From Mytilus edulis (taxonomy: Eukaryota): a stretch of DNA of 64,000 nt. Both the position numbers and the translations under genes were made by a program. The notes beneath the pieces were generated by a model. That model was not told the DNA's origin. It worked only from the letters and a program-made list of their open reading frames with translations, and searched no databases. Numbering within the stretch: the first letter of the stretch is position 1; each line of letters begins with the position of its first letter. Location of the stretch: positions 78,678,001 to 78,742,000 of the forward strand of contig NC_092345.1 of NCBI RefSeq assembly GCF_963676685.1. Reading direction: 5' to 3'. Positions 10,139 to 62,000 of the stretch are shown in pieces.

Positions 10139-10508
10139 TTGGTACCGTTAATGTTATTACTACCACTGGATCGATGCCTCTGCTAGTGGACTGTTAGTCC
10201 CCGATGGTATCACCAGCCCAGTAGCCAGTACTTCGGTACTGGCATGAAAATACGGATTTTTTGTGTTATTAAAATTTGCTGTTACAAAATGTTAGAAATT
10301 ATTATACATTAAGGAATGTATCTCCCTCATGCAAAGCTCTGATTCCTTTCACGGATTTGGTTATACTTTTTGGACCTTTTTGATTATTGCTCTTCATCTT
10401 TTATTTAAGCTTTGGACTTCAAATATTTTGGCCACGAGCATCGCTGAAGAGATATGGATTGTTGAAATGCGCATCTGCTGCAGGATAATTGGTACCGTTA
10501 ATGTTATT
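10139..10508 (+). mobile_element. Non-LTR retrozyme monomer, family 2 (350-nt period)
   Basis: Direct repeat TTGGTACCGTTAATGTTATT at 10139 and 10489, exactly 350 nt apart; contains a hammerhead core at 10438-10481. Confidence 0.8.
10438..10481 (+). ncRNA. Minimal type I hammerhead ribozyme, family 2
   Basis: gcatcg-CTGAAGA-gata tggat tgtt-GAAA-tgcgca-TC-tgctgc: core CUGANGA/GAAA/AUC intact, palindromic AUGCGCAU stem III, one mismatch in stem I. Confidence 0.8.
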
Positions 10509-11480: not shown

Positions 11481-14099
11481 GGGTTAAACATGTTTTGTGA
11501 GATCTTAACCCTCTCCTATACCTGTCATACCTCTAACCAATGAAGAAAAACAAACACACAGCAATACACACAGTAAAACTCAGTTTAAAAGAAGTACTTA
11601 CAAGTGTAAGACTAAAAAAAAGTTAAAAAATAGCATATCCATATACACTAATCCTCTATATTGACTTTACAGCCCTACTGTTTCTTGTGGTTTGAATCAT
11701 GAAAACAATTGAAATGAATATATGTCGATACCTATACTTTGGCATTACACATTCCTTTATTTTGGCATTGCACAAAGTCATATTTTTCTTCTGACTGTTA
11801 ATGAGGTCTTGACAATAAATCCTTTAGATGTTGGATGTGTACGGAGATATGTTTTAGTCTTAGATACAACTTAGCGAGAATGAAAATTTGGAATGTGTTA
11901 AAAAGGCATCAACCCGACCAAAGAACATAAAACAGCCCAAGGTCACCAATGGGTCTTCAACACAGAAAGAAAAATCCCACACCCAGAGTTGGGCTTCAGT
12001 TCAATCAGTTGGGCCTTAAACAAAATTGTACTAGTTCGGTGATAATGGACGTTTTCGTATATAGTTTTATACATACACAATGCCGTTAGTTTTCTCGTTT
12101 GGTTTGTTTATCATATCTGTCACTTCGGGGCGATTTTTACGTACCAAATTCCTTATTGAACGTTTTCTGTATCAATTTACTAAGTTTATAGCTTTATATG
12201 TGTACCCCTTGGATCAATGCACCAAATTATTCATACGTCATTCAATAGTCCATTTGCCAATTACCAATTTTATTCTGTTAATACACACTTTTTAAACAAA
12301 TTACTTCCCTTTGTCAATCGTAGACTGGTTCCATACCGGACAAATTTGGCTTTTGCCAATGCAAAGTATGGTGATTTGAAAGTGATGTATCGGCAGTTTA
12401 ACTATTTTTTCTTAAAAAATAATTTCTGATGTCAAAAGTATTTAGATTAACAACAAATTAATGTAATACAAAGATTTGAAAGCCTTAAATATTACTCGCA
12501 TTACGCACAGGTAAATTTGCTCGTTCTGCTAGCTCTCCATTATAAATGAAAATTAATGTCCCTCATAAGGGAGACAACTGAAAGAGGGATCTCTTATTAC
12601 AGGGTCAATTACGGGAATTGGCAAATAGCCTAATCAACTTTGTCTCCGAGTCTTCATTGTTATATGTATTTCATGTACCTGAATTGAAATACCCCAATTT
12701 TAAAGTATCAAATGCCACACGTAGTTGACTTGATTGTAAAACACAGTATTTTCAGTTCATGTTAATTAAACCAACTTTGAGTCATGGTTTTGATCATTAT
12801 GTTTGCCATTTTATTTCAACGCTGTAAAAAATGAGAAGATATAGTATTAGTGACAATAAGACAAACACTCGTAAAGACCAAGAACACCGAAGGACAAAGC
12901 ATAAATAATTACAGGTCACCAGATGGAATTTGATGATTTGCAAAAGAAAACCACATAACATGTAGTAAGCAATATAACGGCTCGGTATGACAAATATAAA
13001 CCAATTAAGAATAGAAAAAATAACATACTACAAAAATGAACAAAAAATCATTTTGACAAGCAGCAACTAACGACAACCATTTCAGGGTTCGGGCGTATGA
13101 CAGGCACATAAAGTTTGAGTTTATAACATATTTGTGTACTGAACCCGGATGTTTCTAAAAATCGATATGGGAATCATGCTCCAGAGCAATTCAGCTTAGA
13201 TAAAATTTCACAGCTTAGGATAAACATTACATACAGCAATAACTTTTGATCGAGTTTATTATTTTGATGAATGCTAAATGATATTTAGTTGCATACACTT
13301 TATTTGCAAAGATGTGTTGATTAAAAGCCTTTTATCCATTTTGTAACTTGCGTGTTTCAGTCTTAATTACCAGTACTAGCATTTTGTCATTGGATTTCTT
13401 GAAATAGAAGTTGTACACAAATTTTACGGAAGTTAATGGTTAATTATGATAACATTTCAATGTTCCTCTGCGTGCACGTGACATACTTAATTCTTTTTAA
13501 TTGAAATTACAGAAAATAAAGTTTAATGGAAATGGTCGGTAGCTAGCCGATATAGAAAATAATCGCTAGGTGGTAAAATATAAAGAAAATCTAATAATTT
13601 TCTTCAGCTCTAACATGTATCTTATTCATTCATATAGAAATAAGAAGGTAACAGGGGATCGTAAAATAAAAGTAAGATAAGAATTATAATTGCATCAGCA
13701 ATTGAACAAAGACATAAAGATAAAACTTAAATAAATAACAGCACACATCCATCAATAAAAAAAATTCAGACAGCAAATTGACTAATGAAAATAATTGTAG
13801 AAAACATCAAACATACCTAACATTCTTATGTAGAAAACAAATTAAAACATTTATCAATAAACTCATATATACCAGGACTAAATTCTGTATATACGCCAGA
13901 AGCCTACAGAAAAACGTGTCGAAATGCTACTCCGGAAGAGTCAGCACCTTCACTTTCACTAATGCCATCATATTTTCCAAAAAACTATCAGCATTCCTAT
14001 AAGAACCAACAGTGTTTCTCTTTTTGTCGAATTGTTCCTTTATTTGTATGAGGCAAATTTCATTCAAGTGCATTTCAGAAAACCTATGAAAGAAGCTAG

Positions 14100-20900: not shown

Positions 20901-23900
20901 TGATAGTGGGATTTAGAACCGACCAGAAAACCTGAAAAATAACGAACATGAATCGACAAAATTATATTATTGTTTTTTTTTTCTTTTTTTCTTTTTTCTA
21001 TAAATTCGTATATTGCAAGTCAATTCTTCAGTGTTTATTAACTTATTCAAAGAACGAATTACAAGCAGATTTAAATTTCATAATCATTACCAGGCAAACA
21101 AATGATTTCATCTTTATGCATGAACATTAAATGACTGAGACTTTAAGGGGGTGAATTTCATATTTATGATTTCTTGTTACACTTGGAAAAAAATTGACGA
21201 TATCATTACTCATTTCTAATATTTCCGTGTGGTTTTTTTCAAAGTGGTTGGTCTTTTAAATATGCATTATAGAGATGACGTATGATTTCCAATGATACAA
21301 ATATCCATCACATATAAAAAAAAAAAAAAAAAAGTTCGTCTATTGGTTAGATGCATGTTTTTTTTATATTCATAGTTTTAATTTTTAAACCTTTAATTTG
21401 TTCTTTATGATGTACCTTTGTCTTTGCTTTTTTGATATCGCTTAACTTAATATGTAAATTATATAATTTGATTCACCATAAAATGTATCAAATCCTCGTC
21501 GTGTTGGAAGAAATTCATTTTTGTAGAAACCAAGATGCCATTTCCCAATACAGTGTGTGCTATATCCAGCCTGTTGAATTTTATCTGCTATAGTCAGACT
21601 ATCGGTTGGCAAGGCAGTCGGTTTAGATGGCTGTATATTACCATGTTGCATTCCAGTACGAATCTGTAAATACATGTGGAAACCATAAAATTAAATGAAG
21701 TTTTGTACCAGTGAGATATTACATTTGTTTGTGGCACAAATTGACATTAAATCAGTTCCAGATGAAATAAAAAATCATCGTATACCACGATCTATACAGG
21801 CCTAGAATTGTACTAATCATGCCCAATTATATGACACGATAGAACATTCAAATGTTTATATTCCTAGTTTGTCCCCAGCGTGATGCGTTCGTCCATCCGT
21901 CTGTCCGTTCGGTTTTGTTGACGCTCTCGCGTGTATATTACTTGTTTAGTTTTTATAAAACTTATAGCATAGCTTTATGCAAGCAATGTCTCAGACAAGT
22001 TCGAAAATCAGTGCTGATCATTTCTTCTTAAAAGGGTTATAATTATGCCTCTCGGGAATATTGATTATATTGGAAATTGCATCGCATTTGCTCTGAACCC
22101 TTCACTTCTCTAAGATAGTTGAAAAAAAAAGTTTTCGTTATTGCCCTTGGAAAGATAATGGATAGATGAAATATGTGCAACGCGGGCAACATTGGAACTC
22201 TATTTTATTTAGCATACTGCATTGATAAGTTTTATTTGGCACAACTTTTTGGACTTTTGGATCCTCAATGCTCTTCAACTTTGTACTTGGTTGGCTTTAT
22301 AAATATTTTGATATGAGCGTCACTGATGAGTCTTATGTAGACGAAACGCGCGTCTGGCGTACTAAATCATAACCCTGGTACCTTTGATAACTAATTATGC
22401 AAAAAGTACTTGTAGATGGCATTGGTAAAAAAATTAGTATAAAGGACTTGAAATACATTTTGGTTAGTACTATAGTTGAATATTCAGATTCGTAATTATA
22501 CATCACTACGATTTAAACTTCACTGTATCTATTAATAAATGACGACACTATTGGAAAAGGAAAGACTGCAGATCTATATTATCTGTTATGTAGTTTGCCT
22601 GTTACACATGTATATATGTGTCTGAGTGTTTCAAAATAAAGTTATTATTTTTCTGTTATTTTACTTTCCACTCTTAAACACATTGTTTTTAAGGATGGAC
22701 ATTACAATAAAAGATTAAAAAAAAAAGGATGAATTCATCAAAAAAAGGTAAGGCAAGCTATATCGTGTTAATGTAAGTAGTATATAAATTAAAAAAAATC
22801 AATGCTCAATGCAACATTGAAACAAAATGAATTCCTGTACCCTGTAGCGCCTGTGCTTAAAGTCATAAATGTCTCCAACTAATTAGTGACATCTGATGTA
22901 ATATTTCTACTGGTAACCACTTTTTAGTCTTTAACTTCCCCGTCCTTTGGTCTCTGGTGGAGAGTTGTCTCATTGAAAGATTGGAAGGTCTGCGACTTAG
23001 ACATATCTCTGTGTCCATAAAATAATTGTGATCGGAATAATAGGAAAGGTTCAGCATAAGTCGATAGAACAGACACGATATAATATAATAAACATAGTAC
23101 ATATAAAATCAAGACATGTACAATGATTTCCGATGAGACGACTGTCCACAGAGATCACTGAATGGCAGGAATTTTAGCAGCTTTATATGTTTCCGTTCAG
23201 CAGATGCAATAATAACCAAAACTATACCATTTAACAAGGTATAAAAGTCTCTGGTAAGATACATTTCAAACAGAAAAGCATCGGCCTGGTTTATAATAAA
23301 ACCAAACATAAAAAACAAATCTGGCTTACAAAACAAATGACCAACACTGCATTGATTGCCCTTTTATTAGTGTCTCATAAGTCGTTTTTGTGGTTGTTTT
23401 ATGTGTATGTATCTATATAATTTTGCTTATTTTCTTGTCAATTTAAAATATGTGAGATCTTAATAAACTATTTACTTACTTTACTTTCTTCCTCTGTTGT
23501 AAGTGTGGCATTATTTAATTGTCGCAAATCATGAATTATATGGTCATAATTATGAATTAAATGTTTACAAAACTTAAAATTTTGAAATTCTAAGGCTTTT
23601 CTACACCAGGAATAGATTACTTTAGCTGTATTTGGCAAATATTATAGATGTTTTTGATCCTCAATGTTCTTCAACTTCTTACTTTATTTGTGCTTTTTAA
23701 CTGTTTATTCGGGCGACATTACTGATGAGTCTTTTGTAGACGAAACGCGCGTTTTGGCGAAAATACATAATTTCAATTTTGGTATCTATGATGAGTTTAT
23801 TTATTATCAACTATTAAAACAGGACATGATCTTTTGAAGCTGTAAAATGAAATTATGTATATCATAGTCTATACTACTCTTACCTGGTATCTTCCAGACA

Positions 23901-34034: not shown

Positions 34035-34300
34035 TGTAAGCACTTTTGATATGGTCATAATTAAAAATTAACTGTTTACACAATTTAAAGTTTTTCGAAA
34101 TAATAGGGATTTTCAATTCCAGGAAAAGCTGTATTCAACTAAAACTATCGGAATTTGTTATCTTCAGTGATCTTCAACTGCTTACTTTCTTTTATCCTTT
34201 TAACTTCTTTTGATACAAGCGTCATTGAAGATACCTTTGAAGACGAAAATCGGTTCTGGCTTATACAATTTCAAGTCTGGTATCTGTGGTGAGTTTATTT
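34035..34300 (+). mobile_element. Highly eroded retrozyme family 1 copy
   Basis: gcgtca-TTGAAGA-tacctttgaagac-GAAA-atcggt-TC-tggc, with the CTGGTATCTGTGGTGAGTTTATT tail. Confidence 0.6.
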
Positions 34301-41000: not shown

Positions 41001-44000
41001 TATTACTTATTTGACCAACAGAATTTTTTTCTGAATAGTCTTATGATTTGAAAAAATACATATGTTTTTAAGAAAGATCTTTAACTAAATAGATTGAAAA
41101 GTAATAAATCACCATGTTAAACAAAAGCAAAAAACTGTGTGGAATATCTTTATGAGAGTTCATTTAGAATTCAAATTTACTGCACACAATCATATTGTCA
41201 AATTAGTATACACAAAAGGATTATACAGCTGTAAAAACAAACAGCAATTAATCAGATTAAAATGTCCAGGGGCAATGCCACTATTACTTGTATTTTATCT
41301 AATTAGCTAAATATTGCTTAGATATAGACATTATATACATTGTTTGTACTAAAAATTATTTTCAATGTTGTGACAAGCATACCTTTTAATAATTATTATT
41401 CGATTTTTTTAATTTATTTATATTTTTTTATTCATGCTATGTTTTATTTAAATAACTTCATTTCTGAGATGTCAAAATACCCCTTAATGTATTGGCAAGT
41501 TAATGGGAAATAATTTCCTCTTTTATCAACACATCTACTGATTATGGAAGTATAATACCTCTATGTTCTAATCAAGCGATATATGACACATTAGCTCCTA
41601 TAGAAATACTTTTGAGAATGGCTGTCAAAGTGTACAGACCGGAGAGATGTAGACTAAATGACTAAACATTAAAATTACTCATGATTATAAAATGCAACGC
41701 TTAAACTATGCTTACATGAATATTTTACACATACATTATACATACATGTATAATATTGGTTAACAAATATTATGATGAAATGTAATGTGTAATTTAATTA
41801 ATTACTTTAGTAAAGTAATTGTAATTTAATTAATTACATTTCAAAAACTGTGTAATGTGTAATTAGTGTAATTGACCATTTTTGCAATGTAATGTGTAAT
41901 TTAATTAATTACATTCCAATGTAATTGACCCCAAGTCTGTTATCTCTTCATTTTACAGATTTTTATGCTCTTCTGCATTATCAAGTGAATTAAAAGTTAA
42001 ATGAATACTAGTATATGTGCCAATTTGCGAATGACTTGTTGTTGTTCCAACAAAATTTAAATTGCCGACTTAAAATAAAACTGTCCCGAAAAGAAAAAAG
42101 TAAAATCACAAAAGGGATGGAAAGTAAAATCACAAAAATACCGAATACCGAGGAAAAATGAAAACTGAAAGTCCTAATCAAATGTCAAAAACATAATCTC
42201 GTACACATTAAACGAATGAAAAACAACTGTCTATAATAACAAACAAATATGTATAAAAGAAACACAAAAAGGCATATAAACAAAGGAAATTAGTAAAAAT
42301 GAAAGACAAGAATACAAGAATCTACCATAGCACAGTAACACAATGACAGGATGTATTAGTAAAGATACGTCATATTTAATGAAGAAACACAAAAAGGCAT
42401 TCAGACAAAGAACATAAGCAAAAATTAAAAGCAAGAAATCAAAATTTTACCATACCACAATTTAGACTGCCACTGGAAAAAAATGGAATGTTGGAATGGG
42501 ACAGAAATTTTGCCTTGCAAAAAGTCACCTCCTGACTACTCAGATAGTTGTTTCAATGGTTCCTTACCATGCAGATTAAATAGTGTTCACCCGACAAAAG
42601 TTTCCGAAATAAAGTTCCTAAATCAAACAGATGTGGCTGAATATATATACATCCTACACAACCAAAAATATGCCCACTTTAGCTAATCATTTACTCCCAT
42701 ACGGGAAAAATCCAGAGATTACATACTAAATGTCACAATAAACCGTCCAGTTCGTGAAACAATAGGATTTCAATCTTGTCAGGTCTATTTATAAGCATAT
42801 AAATTCTGATCGCTTAACGATGGGGAGACAAAAACGAATGACAACACGTATTCTTCCAAAGGTGGGTTAATAACTCTACTAAAAATATTCATTGAGTGGA
42901 ACAATTAACGTAAACTGTTCCGGTTCTAACTTGTACGAATTCGAGTAGCAAATTGCATCTTCCTGTTTTAATAAAGTCTGTGCGTGTGTATGTTTTAACA
43001 ACAGAACACAAGCATGTGTTGCCTGACAAAAACGAAACATTATAGCAATGGCTGTAGTGTTAACAAGGTTTGAGTTTTGAGAAACTAATGTTTGGGGACA
43101 AGATTTTTTCTTTAAATTGTGTGATTTTTCCATGTACACCAGTTTTACAGCTCGTTTTTTTTTGTGATCCTTGTTACTGTGAACCTTGAACCTAGCTAGA
43201 ATGAGACTGAATTGAAAATTGGGCATCTTTATTGGATTAAAATTCTTCGAAAGGAAAGAGAATCGTACATAGAGCTCAACATTTTTCAAGTTTCCCATAA
43301 AGGCTTTGTGAGATGCAAGTACTTGAGTAAATCAATAAGAAAAAAGTGATTTGTACATATCGTCATTTCATCATTTTGAATAATAGATATGAAAGAAACA
43401 TCTGTGGAAGTAAACCCCAAATATTTACTGAAGTTTCGAATTATGTTCATTCCTTGACTTCCAATGTAAAATTTGTCCTCATGCAAAAATAGTCGACCGT
43501 TCCGCAATTATCTGACAATTTCACATCATTATATCTAATGATTAAGGATGAGAAGTGGATGCAGAAATGAGAAAGAAGAATAGTGGAACCAATAAACTAA
43601 TGAACAACAAACGATTTAATATCAAACAAACGAACGAACAAATTGGTGAAATTCCTCACACACACTATATATCCATTCAGCTTCTTAGAGTGCACAGTCT
43701 TACAAAAACAAAGGACCGCCATGATCGGTAGACTAATAAATACAAACGCAACTTACGCATACGCGTCGAAAGTTTTGAATATCGTTTTATATTTGTAGAA
43801 AATAAACTCATCATAGATACCAGATTAAAATTTGGAATTTGCACCAGACGTGTGTTTCGTCTACAAAAGAGTCATCAGTGACGGTCGAATAAAAAATTTA
43901 AAAAGGCCAAATAAGTACGCAGTTGAAGAGCATAAATGACCAAACATTCCTAAACGTTTTGCCAAATACAGCTAAAATAATTTATTACTGCGGTAGAAAA

Positions 44001-47000
44001 GTCATTGTATTTCAAAAATTCAAAGTTTTTAATATCACCTGTGATTTAAAGAAAAAAGGAAGATAATGATAGAAGGAAAGAGTATGATTTAAGATAGAAT
44101 TTTTTTTTATCATCAATACAGATCTATAATTTCATTCACTAAAATATGTACGTTCGGCACATATTATTTTTATGGAACACAACACTACAAGAAAAGTTAT
44201 ATATCTGAACGGAGAAAACAAGAAGGAAAATTGCACTCTTATTGGGTCTACTTATAGTTCAATCAGACAGATGATACTATATTTTACTAATCAATCATTT
44301 AACATATTGCTGTCATTGACACTTGCTGAATAGGTGATTTGTTAGCCTTTGTATAAAGCATTTGATATATATTTATATATATCACTCAAAAGGGTAAGTA
44401 TGTGAATTACGCAATTTCTAACGATGTAATACACTACTGAACACTGGAAGTGTGTGGTCAATGACCGATCACACCTTTGTGTTAATTTCATTCGTACTTT
44501 TTCATACTTTTAGCCAAAAAAGATTTTTGTGAATTACAGGTGATATTGAAAACGTCAAAAAGCCACGACCTAGTAACATAAAAAAGACCAATAACTTAAA
44601 GATCAATCAAACACTGTTTTGAGCAACAAACAACATATTAGCTTTACCATATATTGAATAATTTAAAAATAAGTATCGTGGTCCAATCTTATATGGCATG
44701 CTAATATATAATTTACTTTTCGTGCCGAGTTTATTATTCTTATTTAATTTTACAGAATTGTGTTCACTTTTACCTAATTAAGTCAAATTTGTGAATATGT
44801 TGCGGATTTGGAATTATTTGTTATTATAACAACAAAAGTTATCTTCCCGATTAAACAAAAAACTAGCGCGAAAAGATTGTTAAGATGTGTACCAAAATAT
44901 AGTTTGTTCGTAATTTATATGTTAAATATAAAAAAGAAGATGTGGTATGATTGCCAATGAGACAACTATCCACAAAAGACCAAAATTACACAGACATTAA
45001 CAACTATAGGTCACCGTATGGCTTTCAACAATGAGCAAAACCCATACCGCATAGTCAGCTATAATAGGCCACGATAAGACCATGTAAAACAATTCAAACG
45101 AGAAAACTAACGGCCTTATTTATGTACAAAAATGAACGAAAAACAAATATCTAACACATAAACAAACGACAACCACTGAATTACAGGCTCCTAACAGGCA
45201 CATACATAAATAATGTGGTGGGGTTAAACATGTTAGCGGGATCCCAACCCTCCCCCTAACCTGGGACAGTGGTATAACAGTACACTATAAATGTATATTT
45301 GTGAGAAAATCTTAGATCCTGCCTCTTTAAGCTTACTTCGTTTTTAAAATTTAGCGGAGACTAATATATGTGGTCGTCAAAATCACTTTAATATAAAAGA
45401 AGGTAACCATTAATTAGATTCATAAATAGGTGCAACACATGCCAAATGTAAGAGTAAACTTGTTTTTGTTCAACCTTCTCCCTTTTCTTTTCTTATAGCA
45501 GAACCACAAAAGGTAACTACACGATAGATTAACAGCCACCTCAAATAGCACGTAACTCAATAAATACAAGTAAAATAGACGACAAAATCACACTAACAAG
45601 TATATCAGTAATGAATTCGAATGTATTGAGAATTCAGTTGAATTAATGAACAACAAATATATATTTTTGTAAAATGCTCAAAGTAATTCGTTTATATTTT
45701 ATAACACTGTATTGCGAGCTTTTATTTGTGTTTAGTTTATTAGTTGATAGAAACATAGTTTGATCAAAAGTTATATTTTCAACTAGAGTTGTTGTAATTT
45801 TCACTTCTCTTTAACTTTAAAAGTATTGGTTAATAAAGGCAACAGACGTATATCGCTGTTCAAAAGTCATAAATCGATTGAGAGACAACAAAACTGGGTT
45901 TCTAACTACAACCGAGGGAAACACATCAATTATAAGAGGAAAACAACGAAACAACAGAACACTGAAGTGCAACAAAAAACAAACGACAATGCAACATACA
46001 TAGAAACGAACAATTAGATAGCAACTTGACATATTCCTTCTACTTGTCGTATGAGTTTTTAATGACCCTTTGGTAATTAATGCCTGCTTTTAGAAATAAC
46101 GAATCACGATTCTACTTTAATGATGGTTAACGTTCCCCTTTTCATACAGAATTCGACCCGCGGATTACATCGAATGATAATCAGGGGCTATTGGTTGCTT
46201 GAAATACACCAATAAAGATTTATCTTATTTATGGTAATATTCATATATACATTCATTTCACTCAATGTTGTATTTTCTTACTTTTTACATCCGGATTTTT
46301 CAGCTCTGATGGTGGTTCTTTATCAAAATAATTTCTATAGTACTCAATTTCATCATACCAGTCTGTAGTAACTTCTTCTCCTATAGTATAAAACAAATGA
46401 GTTATCAATGGAAAAGAATCTCTGAGCTGAGTAATTACTAGAAATCACAAACCAAATACAAATAAAAACTCATCAAAGATACCTGGGTTATAATTTAGTT
46501 CACTAGACGCGTTTCGTCTACTTGTGAGTAATCAGTGGTACTGGACTCGAAACAGTTGGAAGACCAATTCAATGTACGAAGCTAAAAACCATTAAAGACC
46601 AATGAATTCAAAAGTTTGTGCTAATCGACAAATGTTTATGTGAATGGAGTAGAAAAAATATTTTGTGTTTCGAATAGTTCTACATCTTATCAACAGTTAA
46701 TGCACAGATAATTAATGTATCAATGACATTTCATATCTACACAGAAGCGCTGACAAATTGGCTGGTAATACCCTCAGGGTCCACCAGTGACCTCATCGGC
46801 ATCACAAAGTTAAAAAAAAAACCACAGGCTTAAAATTTGATATGCCATACGCTTGCTTCGTATACAAAATTTCAATTCTGGTATCTATGATGAGTTTATT
46901 TACGAAAGTCTTACGTAAGGGCAATCGAATAAAAATAGTTTGAAAAACAAATCAAATATGAAGTTAACTAAAAACTCCGTTTCCTGCATTTGGAAGAATT

Positions 47001-49060: not shown

Positions 49061-49516
49061 TATACGATAAGGATTCTACTATTTCTTAAAGGATAAATGC
49101 TGACCTGCAATTGGTTACATAATCTGTCTTTTTGTGAATAGGTATATCATTGTAAATTACCGCAGTGCTTTGGACGAATGACTATAACGTGTTGTTTTCA
49201 TTGTCTTACAGCACTGGGTCGATTCCTCTGAAGGTGGACTATCAGTCTGGCTCAATAGTCTATACTTCTGTTCTGATATGACAAACCTTTCTAAAACTGT
49301 TCGTTTATATTCTTTTTAGATCATAAGAAACTAATGTTACAAATCTCTGAAGCAAAGTTAATCTTCGGATGTATGAGATTTGTAACGTGTTGTTTTCATT
49401 ATTTGTTTGTATATAACATTTTAAATATAGGGAACTCAAAAGGACATGTTAGGAGCTATACGACTTAAAAGGACTTACATAGTACAACCAAATGCATGAT
49501 AGGTTAGCTTTGCTAG

Positions 49517-51824: not shown

Positions 51825-52214
51825 CGCGTCTGGCGTATTAAATTAGAAGCCTGGTACCTTTGATAATTATTAACATCACTGGGTCTATGCCAGTGCTGGT
51901 GGACGTTTCGTTCCCGAGGGTATCACCAACCCAGTAGTCAGCACTTCGGTGTTGACATGAATATCAATTATAAGTTCATTTTTATAAATTTTTTGTTACA
52001 AAAAATTTCAAAAAATAAGGTTTTTCTTATCCCAGGAATATATTACCTTAGCCGTATTTGGCACAACTTTTTGGAATTGTGGGTCTTCAATGCTCTTCAA
52101 CTTTTTACTTGTTTGGCTTTATAACTATTTTGATCTGAGCGTCACTGATGAGACTTATGTGGATGAAACGCGCGTCTGACGTATTAAATCAGAAGCCTGG
52201 TACCTTTGATAATT
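51825..52214 (+). mobile_element. Full retrozyme family 1 monomer (346 nt between GUC sites) flanked by ~44-bp direct repeats
   Basis: CGCGTCTGGCGTATTAAATTAGAAGCCTGGTACCTTTGATAATT at 51825 and 52171; hammerhead 52139-52182 with weakened stem II. Confidence 0.85.
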
Positions 52215-52377
52215 TTTGCCAGCTATTTTCATTTTTGTTATTTCTTTTTTGTTTTTTCAAATAGCTGATATTCTATTTTGCAAACTGTGATGATAATTGT
52301 CATCCCCTTCTTATAATTTTTAGCAATGATATATTGTTGTTTCTGTTATAACTATTATTCAAGTTATTTAAGCACAC

Positions 52378-52778: not shown

Positions 52779-54896
52779 TTATAATACTAACTGGAACACT
52801 TTCACCTCACTCTTATCTCCTTGCGTTATAAGCAAGCGCTCATCATTTACATCAAATGCGATTGCGCGAGGATATGATATCATGTCATGAGATATAAGTG
52901 TCTTTACTCTGTCACCTTCAGGCGAAACTACTTGTACACTCTTTGCGTGATTTCTACAAACATACAAATTTTCTTCATTATCGAGAGCAAGACCAGCGGC
53001 GTGACCTAAGTCTACACTTGAGTAAGAATAACAATGCTCTGCTGTTTCGATCAGTGTTGTTACAGACCCACGTCTTTCGTCAGCAACGTAAATCATAGTA
53101 CCTTTCCCGTTAGCAGTTATATAAATAGGCCGGGAAAATAGCTGTGACCCGTCGTCATCATATGCAACTGATGCTAGTTCTTTTCCATCAGTATCCAGGA
53201 TTTTCAGTGATGGCGGTAATCCATCGTAGGCTAAAGTGAAAAATTTACCACGGACATATGTCAATCCATAACATGCTTCGCTTGTGATGAAATAATCTCC
53301 AAGAGAAAACCCGACGTCGCTGACATTTAGAATTTGGATTGCTCGCTCTTCCGGAAGTGTCACTGCAATTTCGGAAGGGCTAATGGTTGTCACATCCCAT
53401 GGTTTAGAGTTGAATTTTATACTGTTGAGTTGTCGATAATTCTTTGCAAATAGTTTAACTTTTCTGTTCTGTCTATCAACTAAAACTAGCCGACCATCTG
53501 AAAGAAACGCAGCGCCAGTAAACCAACTATCATTTACCTCATCATGTTCATGCGCACTGAAGGTTTTTACCATCTCTGAACGTTTTCCACGCAAGGAAAG
53601 AGTAGACTTATTAAGATTCGAATGGGTATTATTCTGTTCAACGGAAATCACATTTGGAAATGGTGGTAATTTTGACGGGGAGTACCGCACGGATATTTTA
53701 CCCATTTCTTTTACTTTTGTTTGCATAATTTCTATAGCATGACCCACTTCAAACAAATATTGACAATCCTGGACTTGAGACCTCAGTTTTCCCATGGCGT
53801 CCTCATACCAAATACATTGCGTTCTAATGGATTCCATCATATGTAGAAGTCTAGAATCGGAAGCATGTACTTCAGCCACATTCATTAACTTGTGAGCGTT
53901 AGATACAGCTGAAAGCATTCGTTTACTTATGTCCATCTCTATCTGTAATTTCTTAACTTCTGCGTTGTGGATTTGACTGATATCTCGTTTCAGATTCTTT
54001 TCAAGTTTATCCAGAATATTGATGATGTTGATACGTATCGATGCAAAATTTTCAAGAAGTCGGGTTTTTTCTTCTTCCAAGTACATCAGGTGGTTTGATC
54101 GATCACCAATCATTCCGTCTATGTTGTTTTCGTATTGCTCTAAAGTTTTGTTGAGAAAATCTGGCTCTTTCTCTAATTTACTTTTCTTAACCGCATCAGA
54201 AATCGAAATAACTCTGTCACATCTTCGGTGCTCCTCTGCAATACAATTTGGACAACAAAGTTCTTTATCTAACACACAGAATAAATCAAGTGTTTTTCCG
54301 GAATGTTTGTTGCATTCTTCCTGAAGATCTTTCAATAATTCCATTTCTTTCATAAACTCCTCCTTTAGAAGTACTGTATGGTCCATAGATATGCGCATTC
54401 CTTTATGGACTTTGGCACAATTCTGACAGAGGCCATCGCGACATTCTTTACACCAAGACAATATCGCCGTTGTATCGCCATTTCTAGAACACGGACCGCA
54501 GGTTTTCTCACCTCTTCTTAATAATTCTATATCCAATAAATCCATTAGAAAATGATTGACCGGAAATCCCTCTATCCATTTGTTTGGAGTATGTGTACTC
54601 TTTAGTTGTATGTTCTTTTTACACTGATGACATTCATACTCTCTGGATTTTCTGCTGTCGTCTTTCTTTTCATTTTTTCGTGAAATGAATTCGTTAATGT
54701 TTGTTGCCAAACAATTTTCGCAGTACGAATGCAAGCACGGCAAAGTTCTTGGTGTGTTTAGCCATTTTGAACAAATTCCACAAATCAAGATAGTTTCGTC
54801 AAATTTTCGATGGATCAAATTTGATTTTTCCATAATCACAGTTTTGGATCGGACTGTAGATTTCGATGGACTGTCTCTCCCTTTCGTATTTGACAT
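52779..54896 (-). CDS. TRIM E3 ubiquitin ligase (RING, two B-boxes, coiled coil, NHL-like beta-propeller), intronless CDS, 705 aa
   Basis: RING CGIC..LPCLHSYCENC..CHQC; B-box1 CGPC..WCKECRDGLCQNC..H; B-box2 CNKH..LFC..CCPNC..H; helical segment; NHL-like repeats (PWDVT, YVAD, PRAIAFD). Splice acceptor CAG at 54914-54912 just upstream of the ATG. Confidence 0.93.
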   Translation of the reverse strand: MSNTKGRDSPSKSTVRSKTVIMEKSNLIHRKFDETILICGICSKWLNTPRTLPCLHSYCENCLATNINEFISRKNEKKDDSRKSREYECHQCKKNIQLKSTHTPNKWIEGFPVNHFLMDLLDIELLRRGEKTCGPCSRNGDTTAILSWCKECRDGLCQNCAKVHKGMRISMDHTVLLKEEFMKEMELLKDLQEECNKHSGKTLDLFCVLDKELCCPNCIAEEHRRCDRVISISDAVKKSKLEKEPDFLNKTLEQYENNIDGMIGDRSNHLMYLEEEKTRLLENFASIRINIINILDKLEKNLKRDISQIHNAEVKKLQIEMDISKRMLSAVSNAHKLMNVAEVHASDSRLLHMMESIRTQCIWYEDAMGKLRSQVQDCQYLFEVGHAIEIMQTKVKEMGKISVRYSPSKLPPFPNVISVEQNNTHSNLNKSTLSLRGKRSEMVKTFSAHEHDEVNDSWFTGAAFLSDGRLVLVDRQNRKVKLFAKNYRQLNSIKFNSKPWDVTTISPSEIAVTLPEERAIQILNVSDVGFSLGDYFITSEACYGLTYVRGKFFTLAYDGLPPSLKILDTDGKELASVAYDDDGSQLFSRPIYITANGKGTMIYVADERRGSVTTLIETAEHCYSYSSVDLGHAAGLALDNEENLYVCRNHAKSVQVVSPEGDRVKTLISHDMISYPRAIAFDVNDERLLITQGDKSEVKVFQLVL

Positions 54897-55815
54897 AATG
54901 AGAATTTTCCGCTGAATTTAATAGGTTGTTTTACACATAAGTTTTTGAAATTTGAAGTAGATAGATCGAATTCACTTCTCAATGGTACAAAGCTATTCTT
55001 TCGAAGCAAAAAGAAATAAACGAAATTTGAAATGGAAATGATTTCTTTTTGACGGTTGGCTCGGTTAATGTGAAAAATTTAAATATCCAAATGAATAACT
55101 TAATCATTTCACAGGCATACAATGAAGTGAATAGTGAGTGATGCTTGTATTTATTGAATATTTGAATTCTATTAATTTTAAAGTTTGTTGATAAGGTAAA
55201 TAGCAACGGTGAATGGTTTTTAAATCGAATTGAAAAATTGAAGTTTCAATTGTAATGATATATGTAAGGAATGTATAGAAATTTCCGTTTATACAGATTT
55301 AAATAAAACTTGTTTCTTGTGATGTTAACAAGTACTTTACTAAAATCAAAAGGCAGTTGATCAAATTAACTCAAATTAAAAATATAAAGGCGTTGAATTG
55401 AATTATCCCTCAAATGATTACCATGGTGTTTAGTCATATCAATCAGTATTAATTTCTTAAAAGAAAAATGAAAGATCTTGTGAAGTGCAAAGAATTAAAA
55501 CTTTATAAGGGTTGTAATGGCAAGAATTTAATAGAGCTCAAATCGGAATGCAACAAAAATGTTTTAACAATGAAGTCTCGTATACTACTGGCACATTGAT
55601 AACGGTATTATTTGTTTAGTTAAAAAATCATCAACAGAAACAACCAAGGAAACAACTTAGTTGTACTTTATTAAGAGCCAGGCTTTCAGTGTTAACAATG
55701 GTCATACTATACATCACATTCTGTAAATCTTCGAAGACCACATGTAACTTTTGTTAACTTCTTTTAATGTACTTGCATGGGGTTTTTTGGGGTTTATTTT
55801 TGTTTGTGGTTGGTT

Positions 55816-58272: not shown

Positions 58273-59009
58273 AACCAATTTTTAAAGGCATTTTTAAGTA
58301 CAACATGGAAAATTGGCAAACAATCTATTATTTCACAGAATGAATATATATATAGAAGTTTTTACTCTTGAAAACCATCTTATTGGCTAAGAAAAACAAA
58401 CTTCAATTTTTAACGAAACCTTTTCCAAATAACCCCAAAATTTATTCTGAACATGGTAACAGGAGAGACAATATATTGCACCCCCTATCAAAAAAATGTT
58501 TCGAAACATTCTTGTATGACATATTCAAGATTGCATCTTTGTATAATTATGTTGTTCTATTACATGTATAAGTATTGTTTGTTTTTATTTGCTAGTGATG
58601 AGGGTTGTTTGAAAAGGTAACTTTAAATCAATCTTGCAATACCAAAATTTGAATTTTTTTAAAGTGAACAATATGATAAGATAGGCGATATATTTCTTTT
58701 TAACAAAAAAGGACTTTTAATAGGTGTCCAAAATGTAAGCAATACTATAAAATGAATTAGTACTGTACGTGACACACACAAATTAAAAAAAAATGATTAG
58801 GGTAATTGAAGTTCATTTTAACAAAAAAATACGTAAACACGCTAAAACAAAGTAGCATGAAAACAATGTCATTGAAAAAAATATACAAATATGATATGGA
58901 TGTTTAAGTTGACTTTTTTTAAATCCGGGTTCCTTACGGATACTGTAGTATTTGTTTTAGTATTTTCGGAAATGAAACCCGTTAACGGATCAAATTTACA
59001 ATCGCCATC

Positions 59010-62000
59010 ATGGCAGACGAATTCGGCGATTGTTCGCAAGAAGATATAAAAGATTTATTCGAGGGTGCATCGAAGTATCTTCGACACGTTGCTGGATCTC
59101 AGAATGGCGATAATCTATTATATTTTTATGCCCGATACAAACAGGTGCTAAATTATATGGTTAATCAAAAAACGTACAAAACATTCGGAAAAAATGGTTC
59201 AAAACAAAAGCTGAAAACTGATTTATATTCCATGAAACATAAAGTGACAGTTTTCATCACTTGTCTTACAATAAAATGTATAAAGGAAATGGGGAATGTG
59301 TCAAAGCTACAACAACTGACCATAGAGCAGACAACAGCTGAAGGCCACCAATGGGTCTTCAATGTAGCAAGAAACTCCCGCACCCGTAGGCGTCCTTCAG
59401 CTGGCTCCTTTAAGCCTTAAAAAATATGTATACTAGTACAGTGATAATGGATGTCATACTTAACTTTGAAATATACACAAGAAACTAAAATTAAAATCAT
59501 ACAAGACTAACAAAGGCCAGAGGCTCCTGACTTGGGACATGCGCAAAATTGCGGCGGGGTTAAACATGTTTATGAGATTTCAACCCTCCCCTTATACCTC
59601 TAGCCAATGTAGAAAAGTAAAAGCATAACAATAAGCACATTAAAATTCAGTTCAAGAGAAGTCAGAGTCTGATGTCAGAAGACGTAACAAAAGAAAATAA
59701 ATAAAATGACAATAATACATAAATAACAACAGACTACTAGCAGTTAACTGACATGCCAGCTCCAGACCTCAATTAAACTGATTGAAAGATTATGTCTTAT
59801 CGGGCACAATCCCTCCCGTTAGGGGTTAAGAATTATACTATCATAAAATATATTAGAAGAACATAACCTGTGTCATGCCAACAACTGTTTTTTTTTTTAA
59901 ATAAATGTGTTTAGTTCCAATGCAAAGACCCTATAAGTGAATCAATATTAAACTTTAACATGTTTAAAGCCAAAATATGCAATCTTCAATGACCTGACAA
60001 CAGTATTGTAATGTTGTTTTTAGCTATCCCTTTATAGACAGTAAGGTTGACGCATCTCTATGATCTTCTGAGAAATGGGACTCAGCCCCAAATTTTTGTA
60101 TTACATATGATCATCAGATGTTATATGATTCCACAGTTGTCTATCCCACTGAATTATGTGATGGTTAACACGAATGTCCAAATGACACCATCATTATCTG
60201 GATGAGACTTGGAATGACTGAATGTCACTGTCATTATCCATGACACTTGAAATGACTGAATGACACCTGAAATTTTAATTTTAGCCAGGGTTTCCCCTGG
60301 GTCAATTATATTTTTCGCCACCTCTTTCGCCAAATCAATATACTTTTCGCCACTTTATTTTTTTTTCACCAAGTAACCATGTAACATAAATATATTTTTC
60401 GTTTAAAATTTTCCTTTTTTTCTAGCCCCTCTTAAATAAGATGCGTTTGCCCCATTGTTGTCTATAATTATTCTCTGAAACTTATCTTAGAGTCTACATT
60501 GTAATGAATAAACACTAAGCATTTAATTCTAAAAAGAAGGAACTTTTTTTAAACCTAAAAGCAGGAAATATCATTATATTTTGAACAACTTTTCTAAAAG
60601 AGGAGGCCACTTACTTTTGATAATAAAGAAGATATCAGTCCCGGAATATAACAAAATTCTTAGACATGTTTTGACCATATAATACCGGAAAGATGTACAG
60701 TTCTTTGGGAAAGTGTCTTCAAAAGAAAAAATAGGTGCCCTTTTGGTCTAAGCAGTGGATTTTACAACAAAACAAAAGCTTTTATCACTTGAAATTGATC
60801 CCTCATTTAAGGTGTAGTCAATACATTGAAGGGTAACTCCTCTTCGAGGAGCAGTTCCCAACCTTTTGAATAGATATCTTCATAACAACAGTTTTCTTTT
60901 CAAGACCATCATAAATGAAAAAGTTGAGACGTAAAACTATGCTTGAAACACGTTATGTCACTCAAACCACTTTAAAGTACTCTCTCCAATCAATTATCTA
61001 TATCAAAGTCAAAGGATAAAGTTTTAAATCGGAGATTTTTCTTGCTTTTAAACATATTTCGTCATAACAACAGTTTTCTTTTCTGGACTATCATTATTAC
61101 ATCAAAAGTTTGCTTCGAACACCTGTGTCGCAAAGTAGTTTTAATACATCCTTTATGTGACATGTGACAGAGGCCATTTAACTATATCATTTTGTCAGAC
61201 AATACAATCAACACCTTTATTAATTAGTCCTTTGTTGTCTATACATGTAGCTATAAAATGCAATCAGCTGAATATTGATTTTCTGTCAAAATCTTAACAA
61301 GCTCAAGGAGAATTCCGAGTATTGTCTGATCAGGTAAAGTCTGAGAAACCTGAAAAAAGTAAATAAAGAAGATGGATGAAAATAAATCGTTATACATATT
61401 TCTTTGCAAAATTTTTTCGCAAATGACGAATTTTAATATAACTGTACATGTATATATTTAAATTTACTTCTTCAAGTAAATAAAAATTACTTGTACAAGT
61501 AGTACCCCTGACTGACTATGGAATTGTCACTGGACAAGATAAACAACATAAAGATTACACAAAAGAAGTTATCGATAACCATATGTGAATGCCTGTACAT
61601 GTAATTTTTAAGAAGCAAATTGACAGCCCAACATGCCCAAGGATTTGCTGGTTTCATCAATGTTGTTGAATTGACTTTTTGCGTTCAAAATAAATATTTA
61701 GTCATGATAGTAATGTGATAGTTTTCCAATTCCCTTGTAGGCAACAGAAGGACAATGTAATTCCAAAAAGCCAGGGATGTTTGATTTTCAAGGCAAACAG
61801 AAATGGTAATTTTAAGAAATGTTAAACAAATGTATAAAACTTATTAATTAAAGGGTCAAAATAGAAAAAAAGAGCCAAACATGATGAAACAAATAAAAAA
61901 TTACTGATATACAATGTATGTACACATTTTGACTGATTTTTTGTACTGTTTAAAAGTAAACTGTATAATTGTTAGATCTGCTAGCAAATCAAGAGATCAA

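What the first reader, a model, noticed from the sequence alone, without database searches (positions are those of the whole stretch)
51825..52214. Complete 346-nt cleavage-site-to-cleavage-site retrozyme unit
Seen: GUC sites at 51830 and 52176 bound a 346-nt monomer; the 5' end begins inside the stem III palindrome and the copy has ~44 nt of terminal redundancy. Inference: the expected footprint of slightly more than one round of reverse transcription around a circular RNA, which defines the predicted circRNA sequence.
Basis: partly seen in the sequence, partly recalled or inferred. Interest (0 to 1): 0.75.

Follow-up and report, generated by a model that had tools for sequence, protein, structure and literature searches.

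The report
Decayed mussel retrozyme with Naiad signal
This is one worn, probably inactive copy of an abundant self-cutting RNA repeat of a kind already described in mussels; the family's copies nearly all end at one fixed point beside a hairpin shared with a Naiad jumping gene, whose enzyme likely copies the RNA, probably as a circle, into the genome.

Summary
In detail: two GTC sites 346 nt apart and a 44-47-nt terminal redundancy. The element is a 1.1-unit copy of a type I hammerhead non-LTR retrozyme family (18,632 exact junction 19-mers in the genome, many in tandem arrays), a kind shown to form circRNA in Mytilus. This copy is decayed: one ribozyme core only, three stem II substitutions, no RNA read at 99% or better among 1,722 family reads. 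Its 5' start in stem III is not special; family 5' ends scatter at a constant rate. The informative end is the 3' end: 74 of 78 unselected copies stop 36-50 nt past the cleavage site, just before a hairpin. The same hairpin (three compensatory pairs) follows the fixed 3' end of a Naiad Penelope-like element. cDNA passes the cleavage site with little or no extra loss, so the template was circular or uncleaved. Both ends of this copy share three rare substitutions, which favours one circular template. The proposed junction-read test is not diagnostic. The scan noted the fixed end and the Naiad hairpin before on other DNA of this genome (e1-9295799, e1-9872328); I re-tested both on one Naiad family.

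The parts
51825..51830 (+). 5' truncation point: last 6 nt (CGCGTC) of the previous unit, part of the stem III palindrome plus the GTC triplet; no catalytic core upstream
51831..52176 (+). 346-nt retrozyme unit, cleavage site to cleavage site; at best 90% identical to sampled family units
51878..51935 (+). Bulged hairpin shared with Naiad L217; predicted reverse-transcription initiation signal; weakened in this copy (one broken pair; fold z -0.58 against -2.94 for a young copy)
52139..52182 (+). Type I hammerhead: stem I 52139-52144 with 52177-52182, CTGATGA 52145-52151, stem II 52152-52164 (substitutions at 52153, 52161, 52164), GAAAC 52165-52169, GCGC loop, GTC 52174-52176
52177..52214 (+). 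3' tail, ending at the family's fixed 3' end (end point 52212-52217); shares three rare substitutions with the 5' copy (51846/52192, 51849/52195, 51867/52213) and differs at two (51833/52179, 51844/52190)

Best explanation
51825-52214 is a decayed, 5'-truncated 1.1-unit insertion of an abundant type I hammerhead retrozyme family, likely made by target-primed reverse transcription that began at a fixed internal site and probably ran round a circular RNA, with a Naiad Penelope-like enzyme as the predicted helper. Shown: tandem 354-366-nt units with a hammerhead core; fixed 3' ends about 40 nt past the cut; scattered 5' ends; little or no loss of cDNA at the cleavage site; a hairpin shared with a Naiad just past both fixed ends; damage to this copy's stem II and hairpin. 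Known from the literature for Mytilus retrozymes: self-cleavage and abundant circRNA. Inferred: arrays are transcribed, cut to monomers and ligated to circles; the Naiad RT/GIY-YIG protein binds the hairpin, nicks AT-rich DNA, starts cDNA just 5' of the hairpin, copies about 40 nt, crosses the ligated junction and continues, stopping at about 0.4% per base. Here it stopped 6 nt after crossing the junction a second time. This copy is probably no longer a source of circles.
For: 3' ends at +36 to +50 in 74 of 78 positionally sampled loci and 33 of 35 best-hit loci. 20 of 74 copies cross a second junction against 19.7 expected at a constant stop rate. Genome-wide stop rate in the 13 positions up to the cut is 0.0037-0.0049 per nt against a baseline of 0.0039. 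Both ends share 3 substitutions that are absent or present once among 38 family loci (P about 3e-4 if the ends decayed independently), and the three other loci carrying two of them in one exact 23-mer are only 86-91% identical over the unit. Within-array identity exceeds the best other sampled locus in 22 of 26 arrays. Of 20 fetched GIY-YIG loci, the only one with N-terminal GIY-YIG and C-terminal RT motif (L217, 1053 aa) hits the retrozyme hairpin model at its ORF start (E 1.4e-4; no hit of 8 bits or more in 200 shuffles). 29 of 30 copies of its pLTR stop 1-8 nt past the query end, directly before the hairpin. 77 of 78 cells pair, with 3 compensatory changes in the Naiad. Internal initiation defining genomic 'tails' is shown in vitro for Poseidon_Ac (PMC11167929). 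Mussel retrozymes of 350-390 nt in two ribozyme families form circRNA (PMC7229834).
Against: No circRNA was shown here for any copy. [quoted passage not shown] A mild excess of stops right at the cut is not excluded: 7 of 14 true truncations lie within 0-2 nt of it, about 3.5 expected; by eye about 14 of 43 in the 100 rows listed, about 11 expected. 6 of 57 multi-junction copies start at -4 to -12 against 3.5 expected (P 0.13). Only 3 of 74 cross a third junction against 5.0 expected. No consistent target-site duplication was found, and the empty site was not seen. The Naiad link rests on one Naiad family and six aligned sequences; no binding or enzyme test. Identity with the published Mytilus clones was not checked by sequence (supplement unreadable). 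The within-array excess is small (98.3% against 97.4%) and compared with only 48 loci.
Confidence: 0.68

Rival explanations
1. Same enzyme and fixed start, but the template was an uncleaved linear transcript of a tandem array rather than a circle.
For: Arrays up to about 21 units exist. Mussel HHR cleavage is slow (kobs about 0.1 per min). HHR mutants do not impair Poseidon_Ac insertion in vitro. If this copy's stem II damage was already on the template, cleavage would have been poor.
Against: Most loci are shorter than one unit (52 of 78), so long templates are a minority, yet read-through follows a constant rate across the second junction. No array with this copy's shared variants was found in G000 (exact 23-mer search only). 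Circles are reported as 75-95% or more of mussel retrozyme RNA.
Confidence: 0.22
2. The 1.1-unit form arose at DNA level: a longer array collapsed or was homogenised by unequal crossover, as in satellite models.
For: Collapse between units keeps the same outer ends, so geometry cannot exclude it. Local amplification by unequal crossover is proposed for vertebrate retrozymes (bioRxiv 10.64898/2026.07.22.740005). Homogenisation could also explain shared end variants.
Against: It does not explain the fixed 3' end at dispersed loci on all chromosomes. The share of copies crossing a second junction fits the stop rate seen within the first unit without any extra process.
Confidence: 0.08
3. The helper is a hammerhead-bearing, C-terminal-endonuclease PLE (Neptune, Poseidon or Hydra type) or a LINE, and the Naiad hairpin resemblance is shared ancestry without present use.
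For: Published argument from shared HHRs and pLTR homology. Such PLEs with long ORFs and their own minimal HHRs are present in G000.
Against: None of the C-terminal-endonuclease ORF loci examined carried the hairpin at its ORF start; hits in L224 and L233 were retrozyme fragments nearby. Only 50 overlapping loci from 150 scored of 858 candidates were examined. No poly(A) tail follows family 3' ends. The Naiad pLTR copies are 99-100% identical, so it is young.
Confidence: 0.2

Closest known systems
Mytilus galloprovincialis non-LTR retrozymes (Cervera and de la Pena 2020, PMC7229834; passages and Discussion read, supplement not readable)
   Same: Type I HHR in tandem repeats of about 350-390 bp, low GC, thousands of copies, two similar ribozyme families, transcribed; circRNA proposed as RT template and PLEs as candidate helpers.
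   Different: The passages read do not report a fixed 3' end, stop-rate statistics or a Naiad-shared hairpin. This copy is a decayed 1.1-mer. Sequence identity to the published clones was not tested.
Poseidon_Ac internal initiation and the PLE 'tail' (Frangieh et al. 2024, PMC11167929; parts 1-2 of 4 read)
   Same: Insert 3' ends are set by internal RT initiation downstream of an HHR cut site, near an AC-rich stem-loop; AT-rich targets.
   Different: Autonomous, protein-coding, initiation about 85-92 nt past the cut with two sites; here non-coding, about 40 nt past the cut, and the initiation itself is inferred.
Naiad PLEs (Craig et al. 2021, PMC8557442; passages read)
   Same: N-terminal GIY-YIG plus C-terminal RT, abundant in bivalves; L217 has this order, and shares the hairpin and the position of the fixed end with the retrozyme.
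   Different: Naiads lack canonical HHRs and encode their own enzyme. The passages read do not name them as retrozyme helpers; they only say retrozymes may exploit autonomous PLEs.
Vertebrate retrozymes as PLE pLTR derivatives (bioRxiv 10.64898/2026.07.22.740005; part 1 of 5 and passages read)
   Same: Retrozymes as non-autonomous partners of PLEs; monomers, dimers and multimers.
   Different: Based on Xenopus pLTR homology; zero occurrences of Mytilus, mussel or tail in the main text. Here no pLTR homology beyond the hairpin was found.

Membership tests
Metazoan non-LTR retrozyme | Type I hammerhead in each unit | tested here: met
   Core and stems I-III present in the family; stem II has 4 Watson-Crick pairs in 66 of 77 sampled cores, but is broken in this copy.
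Metazoan non-LTR retrozyme | Tandem repeats of 150-450 bp, low GC, many dispersed loci | tested here: met
   131 units of 342-368 nt; arrays to about 21 units; 18,632 exact junction 19-mers.
Metazoan non-LTR retrozyme | Non-coding, no LTR structure | tested here: met
   No ORF of 120 aa or more overlaps the element; ends are a fixed 3' point and variable 5' points. PBS and PPT were not searched for.
Metazoan non-LTR retrozyme | Transcribed | tested here: met
   Family level: 1,722 reads in 19% of RNA run X24. This copy: 0 reads at 99% or better, none in the flanks (the individual may lack the insertion).
Metazoan non-LTR retrozyme | Self-cleavage and circular RNA | not testable with these tools
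   Needs in vitro cleavage and RNase R northern; junction reads are not diagnostic.
Metazoan non-LTR retrozyme | Target-site duplication longer than 4 bp when present | tested here: inconclusive
   Repeats of 6 nt or more at 20 of 108 loci against 39 of 600 mismatched controls, only one of 12 nt; none convincing at this copy.
Active retrozyme locus (two complete HHRs, criterion of the 2026 preprint) | At least two units with complete HHR motifs | tested here: not met
   One core only, stem II +3.0 against -1.9 kcal/mol for the family.
Naiad PLE (for locus L217) | N-terminal GIY-YIG, C-terminal RT, pLTRs | tested here: met
   GIY-YIG at aa 179-269, YxDD motif at aa 897, 194-bp terminal repeat. 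Pfam RVT_1 did not hit; CxC and DKA motifs and tree placement were not tested.

The most novel reading that the evidence does not exclude
Mussel retrozyme circles are parasites of hammerhead-free Naiad elements: they carry a copy of the Naiad initiation hairpin, so the Naiad enzyme starts cDNA about 40 nt past the ligation junction and rolls round the circle with a constant stop rate of about 0.4% per base. Every dispersed copy is then a record of rolling-circle target-primed reverse transcription.
Probability: 0.55. Interest if true: 0.7.

Novelty: new member of a known kind. Interest (0 to 1): 0.4.

Why it matters
The locus itself is ordinary: one decayed copy among more than ten thousand. 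The family-level result matters more. Which enzyme mobilises animal retrozymes, and whether the circle is the template, is left open in the papers read. A fixed start site, a named candidate enzyme and a specific hairpin with compensatory changes make both questions directly testable in an existing in vitro PLE assay. A search for 'retrozyme' with 'Naiad' found 3 holdings, 2 listed, and the passages read from them do not make this link; subscription journals and the supplement of PMC7229834 were not seen.

Tried and rejected
Rfam at gathering threshold: no match in the window. Stem III as a preferred 5' junction: suggested by 5 of 35 best-hit loci at -4 to -10, rejected as not significant (6 of 57, P 0.13) and not seen genome-wide. 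Run-off at a cleaved 5' end as the main outcome: rejected; at most about 3% of passes stop within 2 nt of the cut (estimate, with assumed flank composition). Target-site duplication: none convincing. Empty site: not obtained; the 5' flank is single-copy in G000, and the two flank-spanning contigs in X1 (0 differences) may come from the source of the assembly, so they are not independent. Source locus for this copy's variants: 3 other loci share the 23-mer but are only 86-91% identical. Direct sequence homology between the retrozyme unit and 30 GIY-YIG loci: only nearby retrozyme fragments. Cleavage of the core-less 5' site by the 3' core through the palindrome: cofolding pairs stem I and CGCG but not in a clean hammerhead fold; left as unsupported. 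Whole-hammerhead fold energies were uninformative (z -1.16 for this copy, -0.23 for a young copy).

Full report
Observation. The two GTC triplets are at 51828-51830 and 52174-52176, giving 346 nt from cut to cut. The ends repeat over 47 nt at 94%. A type I hammerhead core stands only before the 3' site: stem I 52139-52144 with 52177-52182, CTGATGA, stem II, GAAAC-GCGC-GTC with a two-pair palindromic stem III. Rfam gave nothing at gathering threshold.

The family. The own genome has 1.37 Gb, 14 large contigs among the hits and about 31% GC in the window. With run labels such as 'mollusc metagenome' this points to a mussel; that is an inference. A DNA search gave 144 matches from 40 scored of 7,560 candidates, mostly tandem arrays. 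The 19-mer across the cleavage site occurs exactly 18,632 times, the reversed control 0 times. 131 junction-to-junction units from 48 loci are mostly 353-356 nt, with a second subfamily of 362-368 nt. This fits the two hammerhead families in 350-390-bp repeats of Mytilus galloprovincialis, shown to self-cleave and to accumulate as circRNA (PMC7229834, passages). I could not compare sequences because the supplement was unreadable.

State of this copy. It is at best 90% identical to sampled units, with 20 private or rare substitutions and 12 shared ones in 346 aligned sites. Stem II has three substitutions, giving G-U, A-A, C-G, U-G and +3.0 kcal/mol against -1.9 for the family; 66 of 77 sampled cores keep four Watson-Crick pairs. 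In RNA run X24 (19% read), 1,722 reads lay on the stretch, none at 99% or better, none in the flanks; at 52153 the family letter was read in 771 of 787. The family is transcribed; this copy is not shown to be, though that individual may lack it.

Where copies begin and end. I mapped ends for 39 best-hit loci and for the first 80 loci along contig C1 holding the exact 19-mer. I dropped 2 duplicates (L109, L144) from the second set and 4 loci cut by the fetch edge from the first. 3' ends fall at +36 to +50 past the cut in 74 of 78 and 33 of 35. 5' ends scatter round the unit; 52 of 78 copies are under one unit, 8 are 1-1.3 units, 18 longer. The mean stop rate is 0.0039 per base. At that rate 19.7 of 74 should cross a second junction and 20 do; 5.0 should cross a third and 3 do. 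So the window's 1.1 units is one ordinary draw, and its 3' end is the family's fixed end.

Is the stem III start special? Among 57 multi-junction copies, 6 start at -4 to -12 against 3.5 expected (P 0.13). Genome-wide, 328 sites have an intact +1 to +18 but five non-family letters at -17 to -13, against 11,123 with the family letters. 14 of 30 examined were true truncations, the rest indels or internal deletions. This gives 0.0037-0.0049 stops per base, under assumed flank composition and survival factors, the same as baseline. Within that window 7 of 14 lay within 0-2 nt of the cut, about 3.5 expected; by eye about 14 of 43 in the longer listing. A small class of run-off from cleaved RNA is therefore not excluded, but about 97% or more of cDNAs pass the cut. 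Since every cDNA starts about 40 nt downstream of a cleavage site, the usual template cannot be a cleaved linear monomer. It is a ligated circle or an uncleaved multimer.

Circle or multimer for this copy. The two ends share three substitutions (+16, +19, +37) that are absent or single among 38 family loci, and differ at two (+3, +14); independent decay gives P about 3e-4. They were therefore most likely on the template at one position read twice, or on a homogeneous source array. An exact 23-mer with two of these variants occurs at only three other loci, 86-91% identical to this unit and so not its source. Arrays are more alike within than to the best other sampled locus in 22 of 26 cases, by a small margin. 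This favours a circle without proving it. For Poseidon_Ac, unprocessed RNA is the main substrate in vitro (PMC11167929, parts 1-2 of 4). No convincing target-site duplication was found, and no empty allele was seen; the 5' flank is single-copy.

The helper. A fixed internal 3' end is the PLE 'tail' signature, explained by internal initiation. Earlier notes of this scan named a hairpin shared with Naiad elements (e1-9295799), and I tested it. GIY-YIG search found 150 matches from 858 candidates; I examined 30 short and 20 long loci. The only long ORF with N-terminal GIY-YIG (L217, 1053 aa) hits a model of retrozyme positions +31 to +135 at its ORF start (E 1.4e-4), with no hit of 8 bits in 200 shuffles; hits in L224 and L233 were retrozyme fragments. 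L217's downstream 194-bp repeat ends where the hairpin begins. Of 30 identical pLTR copies, 29 stop 1-8 nt past the query end, directly before the hairpin; the 30th is L217's own upstream copy. In a six-row alignment, 77 of 78 cells pair and three outer-stem pairs change on both sides in the Naiad; the one broken pair is in the window's copy. The structure was read off these sequences, so the shuffle control is lenient. This is one Naiad family, and no binding was tested.

The proposed test. Reads across 52176-to-51831 cannot show a circle: the junction exists as linear DNA thousands of times, and nearly so within this copy. Only reads joining this copy's own stem II alleles to its 5'-end alleles and running past 51875 would.

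Literature seen. PMC7229834: passages and the Discussion. PMC11167929: parts 1-2 of 4. PMC8557442: passages. bioRxiv 10.64898/2026.07.22.740005: part 1 of 5 and passages. Others only as search listings. Circle-templated copying by a PLE is already hypothesised in PMC7229834; the Naiad hairpin, the fixed end and the stop-rate fit were not in what I read.

Verdict. A real, decayed member of a known kind of element. Interest 0.4, carried by the testable Naiad-helper and read-through results rather than by this locus.

Noticed in passing
window 10157-10451 (+), 13856-13903 (-), 22233-22397 (+), 23538-23803 (+), 34046-34300 (+), 43800-44029 (-), 46463-46869 (-), 49206-49239 (+): Eight further fragments of the same retrozyme family, both subfamilies, 66-97% identical to sampled units; most of the longer ones end at the family's fixed 3' end; 22233-22397 has an intact-looking core.
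   Followed up: partly
window 52779-54917 (-): Uninterrupted 712-aa frame with RING, B-box and weak NHL hits (TRIM-like). Its stop lies about 570 bp from the retrozyme, which is antisense to it.
   Followed up: partly
window about 31770 (-); L094:99 and 541; L098: A different CTGACGA...GAAAG motif recurs in the window and in two other loci, twice 442 bp apart in L094; possibly another tandem repeat family.
   Followed up: no
window 52118-52165: In small-RNA run X21, 115 reads lay on the stretch, most over the hammerhead core and mostly with the first mate on the + strand; they carry family alleles, not this copy's.
   Followed up: no
G000 rows, for example C2:361545, C2:47296599, C2:90388428, C4:10671896: Several copies have lost the whole catalytic core by a deletion between the two GCGTC motifs (stem I arm and stem III); seen by eye in the listing.
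   Followed up: no
L058 5' end: A short inverted piece of the junction region directly precedes the 5' end (read by eye), like the inverted 5' segments described for PLEs.
   Followed up: no
L070, L071, L074, L075, L080, L096: C-terminal GIY-YIG loci carry their own hammerhead-like cores, unrelated in sequence to this retrozyme.
   Followed up: no
L053, L061, L127: Three copies appear to end at +154, +155 and +186 instead of about +40; later deletion, interruption or a second start site were not told apart.
   Followed up: no
window 58986-59420 (+): 144-aa frame whose start resembles an acyl-CoA-binding domain exon (recalled resemblance, not tested).
   Followed up: no
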